In this document: piece by piece, positions 35,335 through 35,356 of the stretch | Position numbering within the stretch: the first letter of the stretch is position 1 | How the letters are laid out: each line of letters opens with the position of its first letter | From: Trypanosoma brucei | Lineage: Eukaryota | DNA: 64,000 nt | Direction: 5' to 3' | NCBI GenBank assembly: GCA_000002445.1 | Contig: CP000071.1 | Span: 1,856,001 to 1,920,000 of the forward strand | Made by a program: the position numbers and the translations under genes | The notes under the pieces: model-generated | Seen by the model: the letters and a program-made list of their open reading frames with translations, nothing else | Database searches by the model: none | What the model was told of the DNA's origin: nothing

Positions 35335-35356
35335 GGGTTAGGGTTAGGGTTAGGGG
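35335..35356. repeat. Interstitial telomere-like repeat (GGGTTA)3-GGGG, with four G-tracts.
   Basis: gggttagggttagggttagggg lies 110 nt after the SpoU stop and about 630 nt before the tRNA cluster. Confidence 0.9.

What the first reader, a model, noticed from the sequence alone, without database searches (positions are those of the whole stretch)
35335..35356. Interstitial telomeric repeat (TTAGGG)3.5 forming a canonical four-tract G-quadruplex motif
GGGTTAGGGTTAGGGTTAGGGG lies in an internal intergenic region between the SpoU gene and the tRNA cluster. Kinetoplastid telomeres are TTAGGG repeats. Internal copies can recruit telomere-binding factors or mark base-J/termination sites. Four G-tracts allow an intramolecular G4 on the plus strand.
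Basis: seen in the sequence. Interest (0 to 1): 0.5.

Follow-up and report, generated by a model that had tools for sequence, protein, structure and literature searches.

The report
Short telomere-like repeat beside tRNA cluster
A perfect 3.5-unit copy of the telomere repeat sits just after a Trypanosoma brucei gene, at the end of its mRNA and 630 bases before a tRNA cluster where transcription stops, but it is confined to the T. brucei group and is most likely a harmless short repeat rather than a working signal.

Summary
The sequence is real. GGGTTAGGGTTAGGGTTAGGGG lies at 35335-35356 (+) and is the only telomere-like run in the window. The window is T. brucei-group chromosome 8. The run lies 112 nt after the stop of the SpoU gene (mt-LAF6). 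It is 632 nt upstream of the tRNA cluster Ile-Leu-Gln-Gln-Ile, which published tables place in convergent termination region cTTR_37.

Base composition cannot explain the run (about 1e-4 expected per genome). However, the window holds 13 perfect hexamer arrays of at least 3 units, so a microsatellite background predicts roughly ten such runs genome-wide.

The run is identical in T. b. gambiense and T. b. equiperdum. It is absent from the orthologous spacers of T. congolense, T. vivax and L. donovani, which keep the same gene-tRNA layout and have no G4 motif there.

Six public RNA-seq contigs of the SpoU mRNA all end inside the run, where the poly(A) site is expected.

Published ChIP-seq places TRF on this tRNA cluster. 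It also places TRF on most tRNA genes, which lack telomeric motifs.

Best reading: a lineage-specific short interstitial telomeric microsatellite with incidental G4, TRF and base-J potential. A functional role is untested and not supported by conservation. Interest is low to moderate.

The parts
35335..35356 (+). Perfect telomere-type run GGG(TTAGGG)3 plus one G: a short interstitial telomeric microsatellite and canonical four-tract G4 motif
   Evidence: Identical in T. b. gambiense DAL972 (L008:4234-4255) and T. b. equiperdum IVM-t1.
34102..35223 (+). SpoU-type methyltransferase gene (mitoribosomal LSU assembly factor mt-LAF6). The run lies 112 nt after its stop codon.
   Evidence: Pfam PF00588, E=1.5e-16. 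100% identical to T. brucei TREU927 and T. equiperdum proteins. Matches PDB 6YXX/6YXY chain EF, named 'mt-LAF6'.
34048..34049 (+). AG splice acceptor of the SpoU mRNA. The spliced leader is joined to 34050, giving a 52-nt 5'UTR.
   Evidence: Logan contig L013 starts with 27 nt of the T. brucei spliced leader fused to CACTGGGG..., which maps at 34050. The spliced leader is not encoded in the window.
35224..35348 (+). SpoU 3'UTR as supported by transcript contigs. Their 3' ends fall at 35343 (2 contigs) and 35348 (4 contigs), inside the run.
   Evidence: six RNA-seq-derived contigs from six runs. The ends lie 153-158 nt upstream of the next splice acceptor, within the published 123-178 nt interquartile range.
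35319..35330 (+). Left arm (GAAGCTTTGCGG) of an imperfect inverted repeat that brackets the run
   Evidence: ViennaRNA MFE with G4 allowed. The flank-duplex energy of -11.3 kcal/mol is in the top 2.5% of random window positions. This is a weak, post hoc result.
35357..35366 (+). Right arm (CCGCAGTTTC) of the same inverted repeat
35437..35500 (+). Polypyrimidine tract (core CCTTTTTTTCTTTTTTT at 35437-35453, pyrimidine-rich to about 35485) and the first downstream AG (35499-35500). This is the signal expected to position SpoU polyadenylation.
   Evidence: Sequence, AG positions, coupling rule from Kolev et al. 2010, PMC2936537. The T-tract length varies between subspecies.
35988..36674 (.). tRNA cluster Ile(AAT)+, Leu(TAA)-, Gln(CTG)-, Gln(CTG)+, Ile(AAT)+. 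It corresponds to cluster 'chr08-V' and lies in cTTR_37 of Lister 427.
   Evidence: PMC2695483; PMC8559703, Suppl. Table S8: same five genes in the same order on Chr8_core, cTTR_37, TTR factors 'yes'
38218..38907 (+). Last + strand ORF (C2H2 zinc-finger protein), between the tRNA cluster and the convergent strand-switch region
   Evidence: A homologue lies downstream of SpoU in T. melophagium.
38908..42758 (.). Convergent strand-switch region. Long ORFs are on + up to 38907 and on - from 42759 (amastin-like, then succinate dehydrogenase flavoprotein).

Best explanation
The run is a short interstitial telomeric sequence: in effect a 3.5-unit GGGTTA hexanucleotide microsatellite. It arose in the Trypanozoon (T. 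brucei-group) lineage in the 3' flank of the mt-LAF6/SpoU gene on chromosome 8. Its origin is one of two ordinary processes, and the data cannot separate them. The first is replication slippage from a chance two-unit seed; I favour this slightly, because hexamer arrays of 3-5 units are very common here. The second is capture of telomerase-made repeats during double-strand-break repair, as shown for vertebrate short ITSs. The run lies on the coding (non-template) strand of the Pol II unit, in the zone where the SpoU mRNA is cleaved and polyadenylated, 632 nt before a tRNA cluster that closes the unit. Its physical properties follow directly from the sequence. The 21-mer is the textbook telomeric quadruplex-forming oligonucleotide. 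It offers two adjacent TTAGGGTTA half-sites, enough for one TRF dimer. It offers exactly one pair of thymines with the 13-nt stagger seen for base J (35339 on +, 35352 on -). I infer that these properties are incidental. Transcription termination and TRF recruitment at this boundary are explained by the conserved tRNA genes, not by the repeat. Shown: the sequence, its position, its taxonomic distribution, the transcript contig ends, and the published TTR and TRF annotation of the tRNA cluster. Inferred: the origin, the poly(A)-site assignment, and neutrality.
For: The run is exact and unique in the window. The window carries 13 perfect hexamer arrays of at least 3 units, including complex units such as AAAGGG, AACATC, AACCAC and AACGGC. 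About 18-24 chance two-unit telomeric seeds are expected per 35 Mb. There are no degenerate telomeric units in the flanks. No repeat family or RNA family covers the site. The run is present and identical in T. b. gambiense and T. b. equiperdum and in six RNA-seq assemblies. It is absent from the spacers of T. congolense, T. vivax and L. donovani, where SpoU is still followed by the same tRNAs, and those spacers carry no canonical G4 motif. The spacers are otherwise unalignable, so this is fast-evolving DNA. TRF and seven other factors sit on this tRNA cluster, but also on 53 of 69 tRNA genes where no telomere-like motif was found. tRNA genes are themselves thought to block Pol II. G4-prone windows are frequent in the window: 40 at |G4Hunter| >= 1.5.
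Against: Conservation within Trypanozoon is uninformative at 98% identity, so selection there is not excluded. The location is suggestive in three ways: the run is on the non-template strand, at the mRNA 3' end, and just upstream of an annotated termination region where TRF was unexpectedly found. All six transcript contigs break inside the run, which could reflect a real effect of the repeat on RNA 3'-end formation or on reverse transcription. Nearby mononucleotide tracts vary between subspecies while the run does not. I could not scan the T. brucei genome, so the predicted background of about ten such runs, and their relation to tRNA genes, is untested.
Confidence: 0.62

Rival explanations
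1. The run is a cis-acting chromatin seed. It binds a TRF dimer and/or serves as a JBP2 entry site for base J, possibly via a G4 on the displaced non-template strand. In this way it helps stop Pol II before it collides with the Pol III-transcribed tRNA cluster of cTTR_37.
For: The tRNA cluster 632 nt downstream is inside cTTR_37 and is listed as bound by TRF. TRF at such sites was unexplained by the authors. (GGGTTA)10 is sufficient for de novo base J in L. tarentolae plasmids whereas (GGGTTT)10 is not, and J sites lie near G4-prone sequence. G4 ChIP peaks are enriched at T. brucei termination sites, and a G4 ligand lowers expression there. The run contains one T/T pair with the 13-nt stagger (sequence).
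Against: TRF peaks occur at most tRNA genes without telomeric motifs. The run is absent in T. congolense, T. vivax and L. donovani, which have the same boundary. Only 3.5 units are present against the 10 tested. No ChIP or base-J data at base resolution were available to me for this site.
Confidence: 0.13
2. The run is an RNA-level element. In the nascent SpoU transcript the UUAGGG run folds into a TERRA-like RNA quadruplex held in a 10-bp stem. This structure influences where the mRNA is cleaved and polyadenylated, or its stability.
For: Six independent RNA-seq contigs, one carrying the spliced leader, end inside the run at 35343 or 35348. These ends are 153-158 nt from the next AG acceptor, within the published 123-178 nt range. 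With quadruplexes allowed, the MFE fold contains the three-layer G4 (-12.6 kcal/mol alone) in every context from 22 to 277 nt. From 62 nt upward it is enclosed by the stem GAAGCTTTGCGG/CCGCAGTTTC. The flank pairing is in the top 2.5% of random positions.
Against: Poly(A) position in T. brucei is set by the downstream polypyrimidine tract and acceptor, which alone predicts this site. If the mRNA ends at 35343-35348, the mature RNA keeps only 2-3 G-tracts and cannot form the four-tract quadruplex. The contigs carry no terminal A's, so the ends may be assembly forks or reverse-transcription stops. There is no conservation outside Trypanozoon, and no covariation can be tested because all three genomic sequences are identical.
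Confidence: 0.12
3. The run is the remnant of an ancestral chromosome end or of a telomere-telomere fusion, created when the ancestral small chromosomes merged into T. brucei chromosome 8.
For: Gene content beyond the tRNA cluster differs between lineages: amastin and SDH in T. brucei, acyl-CoA reductase in T. theileri and L. donovani, amidohydrolase then amastin in T. vivax.
Against: The run lies between SpoU and the tRNAs, an adjacency conserved from Leishmania to T. brucei. Any rearrangement is therefore on the far side of the tRNAs. The run has only 3.5 pure units, no degenerate or head-to-head repeats and no subtelomeric sequence. It is absent from the other African trypanosomes.
Confidence: 0.02
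4. The run is a sequencing or assembly artefact, or pure chance.
For: None beyond its short length.
Against: The same sequence occurs in three independent genome assemblies, and its first 9-14 nt occur at the ends of six transcriptome assemblies that break off inside it. The composition-based expectation is about 1e-7 per window.
Confidence: 0.01

Closest known systems
Short interstitial telomeric sequences (short ITSs) of vertebrate genomes (Nergadze/Santagostino et al.; PMC7215372, PMC8537989)
   Same: A few perfect TTAGGG units at a unique, non-terminal, non-subtelomeric site with sharp junctions. It is lineage-specific and, once present, stable.
   Different: It has 3.5 units, below the four-unit threshold of that catalogue. 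The defining evidence, an alignable 'empty' orthologous locus showing sudden insertion, could not be obtained because the spacer is unalignable with T. congolense and T. vivax. The organism is a kinetoplastid, for which my two literature searches for such sites found no description.
Ordinary hexanucleotide microsatellites produced by replication slippage
   Same: It has the same size class (3-5 units, 18-31 nt) and the same non-coding setting as most of the 12 other perfect hexamer arrays in the window.
   Different: Its unit happens to be the telomere repeat, which brings specific binding and modification potential. Its copy number did not vary among the three genomes compared.
Human telomeric quadruplex oligonucleotides d[(A)GGG(TTAGGG)3] and TERRA r(UUAGGG)n (my own knowledge: PDB 143D, 1KF1, 3IBK)
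   Same: The 21 nt at 35335-35355 are identical in sequence to the classic intramolecular telomeric G4 former. The RNA version is predicted to fold.
   Different: Here the sequence is embedded in duplex chromosomal DNA and in a pre-mRNA, not in a single-stranded overhang. Formation in vivo is untested.
Base-J 'entry' sequences in Leishmania (Genest et al. 2015, PMC4344527)
   Same: It shares the GGGTTA repeat, the strong G/C strand bias, the G4 potential and a T/T pair with a 13-nt stagger.
   Different: Only (GGGTTA)10 was tested, in L. tarentolae plasmids. This site has 3.5 units in T. brucei, where J is made only in bloodstream forms (my own knowledge). No base-J data for the site were available.
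TRF and seven other factors at Pol III-associated Pol II termination regions of T. brucei (Staneva et al. 2021, PMC8559703)
   Same: The neighbouring tRNA cluster is one of these regions (cTTR_37, all factors present).
   Different: That phenomenon is general to tRNA and snRNA genes, and the authors report no telomere-like motifs. The run lies 632 nt outside the tRNA genes, and its contribution to the peak is unknown.

Membership tests
Short interstitial telomeric sequence (short ITS) | [quoted passage not shown] | tested here: met
   21/21 perfect. The site is internal to a 64-kb gene-dense window with genes on both sides.
Short interstitial telomeric sequence (short ITS) | At least four repeat units (the catalogue threshold, chosen by its authors to exclude chance matches) | tested here: not met
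   3.5 units. Threshold as quoted.
Short interstitial telomeric sequence (short ITS) | Sudden insertion: the orthologous locus in a related species is 'empty' with otherwise alignable flanks | tested here: inconclusive
   The run is absent in T. congolense, T. vivax and others, but the spacers share no alignable sequence. Insertion cannot be told from in-situ expansion.
Slippage-type microsatellite | Belongs to a population of short perfect arrays far more numerous than composition predicts | tested here: met
   13 perfect hexamer arrays of at least 3 units in 64 kb.
Slippage-type microsatellite | Copy-number polymorphism between strains | tested here: not met
   The run has 3.5 units in the window strain, DAL972 and IVM-t1, while adjacent T and A tracts vary. 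With only three genomes this is a weak test.
Canonical intramolecular G-quadruplex motif | Four tracts of at least 3 G separated by loops of 1-7 nt, with a high G4Hunter score | tested here: met
   Regex hit. G4Hunter 1.95. RNA G4 of -12.6 kcal/mol, present in the MFE fold in all contexts.
Canonical intramolecular G-quadruplex motif | Structure actually formed in chromatin or in the transcript | not testable with these tools
   G4 ChIP-seq and G4-seq data exist for T. brucei, but no peak tables are held.
Base-J entry or modification site | Telomeric or G4-prone sequence with thymines 13 nt apart on opposite strands | tested here: met
   T35339 (+) and T opposite A35352 (-) by inspection. Rule.
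Base-J entry or modification site | Base J detected at the site (J-IP or SMRT) | not testable with these tools
   No modification data were accessible.
TRF-bound interstitial site | Duplex TTAGGG half-sites sufficient for a Myb-domain dimer | tested here: met
   TTAGGGTTA at 35338-35346 and 35344-35352. The dimer requirement is my own knowledge of TRF proteins.
TRF-bound interstitial site | TRF ChIP enrichment attributable to the repeat | tested here: inconclusive
   Published tables list TRF at the adjacent tRNA genes of cTTR_37, but the same holds for tRNA genes without repeats. Peak shape at the run was not available.
Pol II transcription termination region | Lies within an annotated TTR at the end of a polycistronic unit | tested here: inconclusive
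   The tRNA cluster 632 nt downstream is in cTTR_37, and the convergent strand switch is at about 39-42.7 kb. The TTR boundaries relative to the run are not given.
Relic of a chromosome end or fusion | Synteny break at the site, with degenerate or head-to-head telomeric and subtelomeric repeats | tested here: not met
   The SpoU-tRNA adjacency is conserved in T. vivax, T. congolense, T. theileri and L. donovani. There are no further telomere-like sequences.
Telomerase RNA template (- strand CCCTAA run) | Part of a structured non-coding RNA gene | tested here: not met
   No Rfam match over the site at gathering score or at E<=1. The - strand is antisense to the transcription unit.

The most novel reading that the evidence does not exclude
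The repeat is not incidental. Pol III-associated termination regions of T. brucei are held near telomeres and loaded with TRF, as published ChIP-seq shows. On this reading the run is either a functional TRF and base-J nucleation site that reinforces Pol II termination and 3'-end formation at cTTR_37, or a scar showing that telomerase acts on breaks at Pol II/Pol III collision zones. If so, short TTAGGG runs should be enriched next to tRNA genes genome-wide, and this would give a sequence handle on the unexplained TRF signal.
Probability: 0.1. Interest if true: 0.6.

Novelty: new member of a known kind. Interest (0 to 1): 0.27.

Why it matters
If the repeat is only a neutral microsatellite, it matters little. 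It would remain a natural single-copy telomeric G4 and TRF site that could serve as an internal control in T. brucei ChIP, base-J and G4 mapping. It would also be an exception to published statements that no telomere-like sequence lies near Pol III-associated termination regions, or outside the telomeric repeat arrays. If it does affect TRF or base-J deposition, or mRNA 3'-end formation, it would be a compact, mutable 22-bp element. Such an element could be used to dissect how trypanosomes end polycistronic transcription, which is an open question.

Tried and rejected
(1) Exact-protein look-ups of window proteins to fetch the source genome found nothing. The route that worked was cluster members P0040 and P0041.

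(2) I aligned the SpoU-tRNA spacer with T. congolense and ran sensitive blastn against six species. Only poly-T/poly-A matches appeared, so no 'empty site' could be defined.

(3) I looked for a conserved G4 motif in the orthologous spacers. None was found in T. vivax, T. congolense or L. donovani. T. theileri has an assembly gap right after SpoU (L003:11271-11808), the T. grayi contig ends 144 nt after SpoU, and T. cruzi and T. melophagium have no tRNAs within 10 kb. These four are uninformative.

(4) I searched for repeat or transposon membership of the flanks and found none.

(5) An ncRNA or telomerase-RNA reading was rejected.

(6) The chromosome-fusion relic reading was rejected on synteny.

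(7) Supplementary peak tables of the 2026 G4 ChIP paper are not held.

(8) Two literature searches for interstitial or chromosome-internal telomeric repeats in T. brucei turned up no paper describing them.

(9) The flanking 10-bp stem is only in the top 2.5% of random positions. I treat it as a weak post hoc observation, not evidence.

(10) I could not decide why the transcript contigs stop at 35343 and 35348. Poly(A) forks, reverse-transcription stops at an RNA G4, and allelic forks all remain possible. The absence of terminal A's argues against a simple poly(A) end.

Full report
OBSERVATION. The window reads gatgtGGGTTAGGGTTAGGGTTAGGGGccgcag, with the G-rich run at exactly 35335-35356 on the + strand. 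Tandem Repeats Finder reports period 6, 3.5 copies and 100% matches. A sliding 18-mer comparison with every phase of the telomere repeat on both strands finds no other stretch with at least 14/18 matches in the 64 kb. It is the only canonical four-tract G4 motif on the + strand; four others lie on the - strand. Its G4Hunter score is 1.95.

WHERE IT IS. The ORF at 34102-35223 is a SpoU_methylase protein. It is 100% identical to proteins of T. brucei TREU927 and T. equiperdum and matches PDB 6YXX/6YXY chain EF, mitoribosomal assembly factor mt-LAF6. Five tRNA genes follow at 35988-36674: Ile-AAT +, Leu-TAA -, Gln-CTG -, Gln-CTG +, Ile-AAT +. This is the 'chr08-V' cluster of Padilla-Mejia et al. 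2009, syntenic with L. major chr24-II. Long ORFs are on the + strand up to 38907 and on the - strand from 42759. The tRNAs therefore sit near the end of a polycistronic unit, in front of a convergent strand-switch region. Supplemental Table S8 of Staneva et al. 2021 lists the same five genes in the same order on Lister 427 Chr8_core 1,777,934-1,778,616. It places them inside convergent termination region cTTR_37 and marks them 'yes' for overlap with all eight Pol III/TTR-associated factors. The run lies 112 nt after the SpoU stop and 632 nt before the first tRNA.

IS IT MORE THAN CHANCE? By composition or a first-order Markov model, a perfect 21-mer in any phase and on either strand is expected about 1e-7 times per window and 5e-5 to 9e-5 times per 35 Mb. 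That null is too weak, however. The window contains 13 perfect hexanucleotide arrays of at least 3 units, in ten unit classes, several with complex units such as AAAGGG, AACATC, AACCAC and AACGGC. Composition would predict about 0.004 by my arithmetic (4^-12 per position). Short hexamer arrays are therefore generated freely in this genome. About 18-24 chance two-unit telomeric seeds per 35 Mb are expected to be available for expansion. With roughly 350 hexamer classes, the telomeric class should turn up in a few percent of such windows, and of the order of ten times per genome. The run is real and non-random, but its existence does not by itself call for a telomere-specific process.

DISTRIBUTION. 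I fetched the orthologous locus from nine assemblies. The upstream gene order (WD40, UQ_con, a gene with no Pfam hit, SET, Ssl1, a 273-aa protein, SpoU) is conserved in all loci long enough to show it. The tRNA cluster follows SpoU in T. vivax, T. congolense, T. theileri and L. donovani. None of these, nor T. cruzi, T. melophagium or T. grayi, has even two consecutive TTAGGG units. The informative spacers (T. vivax, T. congolense, L. donovani) have no canonical G4 motif on either strand. T. theileri has an assembly gap immediately after SpoU, and the T. grayi contig ends 144 nt after it, so those two are silent. The T. brucei spacer has no detectable homology with any of the others beyond homopolymer tracts. 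Within Trypanozoon the picture is the opposite. T. b. gambiense DAL972 and T. b. equiperdum IVM-t1 carry the identical run with identical flanks in a spacer that is 98% identical overall. A nearby T-tract and an A-tract differ in length but the run does not. At that divergence a 22-nt invariant stretch is expected by chance, so this shows presence, not constraint. The element is thus confined to the T. brucei group. It is not part of the ancestral architecture of this boundary.

TRANSCRIPT CONTEXT. The look-up that returned DAL972 also returned six Logan contigs from six sequencing runs. One of them (L013) begins with 27 nt of the T. brucei spliced leader joined to CACTGGGG..., which maps to window 34050 just after an AG. 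The leader is not encoded in the window. These are therefore transcriptome assemblies, and the SpoU 5'UTR is 52 nt. All six contigs end inside the run: four at ...GGGTTAGGGTTAGG (35348) and two at ...GGGTTAGGG (35343). Two of them span the two upstream intergenic regions without breaking. The first polypyrimidine tract after the stop codon (core 35437-35453) is followed by its first AG at 35499-35500. Kolev et al. [quoted passage not shown] The contig ends are 153-158 nt from this AG. I infer that the run lies in the poly(A) addition zone of the SpoU mRNA. The contigs carry no terminal A's and do not end at A residues. An assembly fork or a reverse-transcription block at an RNA quadruplex therefore remains possible. 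If the mRNA does end there, the mature message keeps only two or three G-tracts.

STRUCTURE POTENTIAL. The 21-mer is the classic telomeric quadruplex former (my own knowledge). With quadruplexes enabled, ViennaRNA puts a three-layer RNA G4 (-12.6 kcal/mol alone) into the minimum-energy fold in every context from 22 to 277 nt. From 62 nt upward it encloses the G4 in a stem, GAAGCTTTGCGG/CCGCAGTTTC. That flank pairing ranks in the top 2.5% of random window positions, which is mildly unusual and post hoc. G4-prone windows are common here: 40 at |G4Hunter| >= 1.5. G4 potential alone is therefore not distinctive. The G-rich strand is the non-template strand for the Pol II unit, the orientation that favours a displaced-strand G4 (inference).

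TELOMERE FACTORS AND BASE J. Staneva et al. found TRF, unexpectedly, among eight proteins with sharp ChIP-seq peaks at termination regions that contain Pol III genes. They looked for telomere-like motifs and reported 'no significant matches'. They proposed proximity of tRNA genes to telomeres at the nuclear periphery as the explanation. The cluster next to this run is one of those sites. But since 53 of 69 tRNA genes show the same factors without any repeat, TRF at this locus does not need the run. For base J, Genest et al. showed that (GGGTTA)10, but not (GGGTTT)10, acquires J de novo in L. tarentolae plasmids. They also showed that J occurs in pairs 13 nt apart on opposite strands near G4-prone sequence. 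The run offers exactly one such pair (35339 +, 35352 -), but it is only a third as long as the tested insert. A 2026 G4 ChIP-seq study reports enrichment at T. brucei termination sites, but its peak tables were not available.

INTERPRETATION. The best-supported reading (about 0.62) is a lineage-specific short interstitial telomeric microsatellite with incidental G4, TRF and base-J potential. Termination and factor recruitment at this boundary are accounted for by the conserved tRNA genes. Origin by slippage or by telomerase-assisted break repair cannot be separated without an alignable empty site. The vertebrate short-ITS class is defined by just such comparisons and by at least four units, and neither criterion is met here. 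Rivals are a chromatin seed for TRF or base J that reinforces termination (about 0.13) and an RNA-level element at the poly(A) site (about 0.12). A relic of a chromosome end is rejected, because the flanking adjacency is conserved from Leishmania to T. brucei. An artefact is rejected on the evidence of three genome assemblies carrying the identical run, plus six transcriptome contigs that reach its first 9-14 nt. A telomerase-RNA template or other ncRNA is rejected.

NOVELTY AND SCORE. Short interstitial telomeric repeats and telomeric quadruplexes are well known. Two literature searches for interstitial or chromosome-internal telomeric repeats in T. brucei found no paper describing them, and two papers imply there are none. 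This is a new member of a known kind. The position next to a TRF-positive termination region gives it some experimental use. Lack of conservation and the microsatellite background keep the interest low to moderate (0.27).

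Noticed in passing
L009-L014 3' ends, equivalent to window 35343 and 35348: Six RNA-seq-derived contigs from six different runs (ERR7929156, 157, 159, 162, 163, 164) all terminate inside the telomeric run, at only two positions 5 nt apart and without terminal A's. Two of them cross the two upstream intergenic regions unbroken. The cause is undecided: poly(A) fork, RT stop at an RNA G4, or allelic fork.
   Followed up: partly
window 36234-36360 and 36448-36574: A 127-nt inverted repeat, 100% complementary with an 87-nt spacer, covers the two tRNA-Gln(CTG) genes plus about 54 nt of flank. The Gln(-)/Gln(+) arrangement is also present in T. vivax and T. theileri. Perfect identity beyond the tRNA body suggests ongoing gene conversion, and it is a potential cruciform or fragile site. 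It also produces spurious sub-threshold miRNA hits in Rfam.
   Followed up: partly
window 35983-36067 and 36595-36679: The two tRNA-Ile(AAT) genes form an 85-nt direct repeat (96%) 612 nt apart. According to the counts in Padilla-Mejia et al. 2009 (T. brucei: 2 Ile-AAT, 2 Gln-CTG, 1 Leu-TAA), this single cluster holds every copy of these three isoacceptor genes in the core genome.
   Followed up: partly
L015:7892-7966 (T. b. equiperdum IVM-t1): This assembly has only one tRNA-Ile and then continues with sequence matching window 36600 onward. The 612 bp between the two Ile repeats (Leu, Gln, Gln) is missing. Because those genes appear to be unique in the genome, this is probably an assembly collapse rather than a real deletion.
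   Followed up: partly
L008:5311-7122 (T. b. gambiense DAL972): After the first tRNA-Gln there is a 100-N gap followed by a long ORF with reverse-transcriptase and RNase H domains. It has no counterpart in the window. It may be a retroelement insertion or a scaffold misjoin at the tRNA cluster in that assembly.
   Followed up: no
L007:1586-1598 (T. congolense): A weak telomere-like stretch AACCCTAACCTAA (14/18, C-strand on +, the opposite orientation) lies 633 nt upstream of tRNA-Ile, against 632 nt for the T. brucei run. The surrounding spacers are unalignable, so this is probably a coincidence.
   Followed up: partly
window 35340-35354: The 15-mer AGGGTTAGGGTTAGG, chosen as the telomere TALE target in a 2026 eLife study, occurs here. 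[quoted passage not shown] It occurs at this chromosome-internal site in the window strain, DAL972 and IVM-t1. Either Lister 427 lacks it or the statement overlooked it.
   Followed up: no
window 35319-35330 and 35357-35366: An imperfect inverted repeat, GAAGCTTTGCGG / CCGCAGTTTC, brackets the run, so the run would form the loop of a hairpin. The flank pairing energy is in the top 2.5% of random positions.
   Followed up: yes
window 38900-46200 versus L001, L003, L006: Gene content on the far side of the tRNA cluster and strand-switch differs between lineages: amastin-like plus succinate dehydrogenase flavoprotein in T. brucei, amidohydrolase then amastin in T. vivax, fatty acyl-CoA reductase in T. 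theileri and L. donovani. The boundary is a site of lineage-specific rearrangement, although the SpoU-tRNA side is fixed.
   Followed up: partly
window 20000-24000 and 40000-46000: Long AT-rich intergenic stretches (GC 0.31-0.37) are dense in short microsatellites. GC skew changes sign across the convergent strand-switch region.
   Followed up: no
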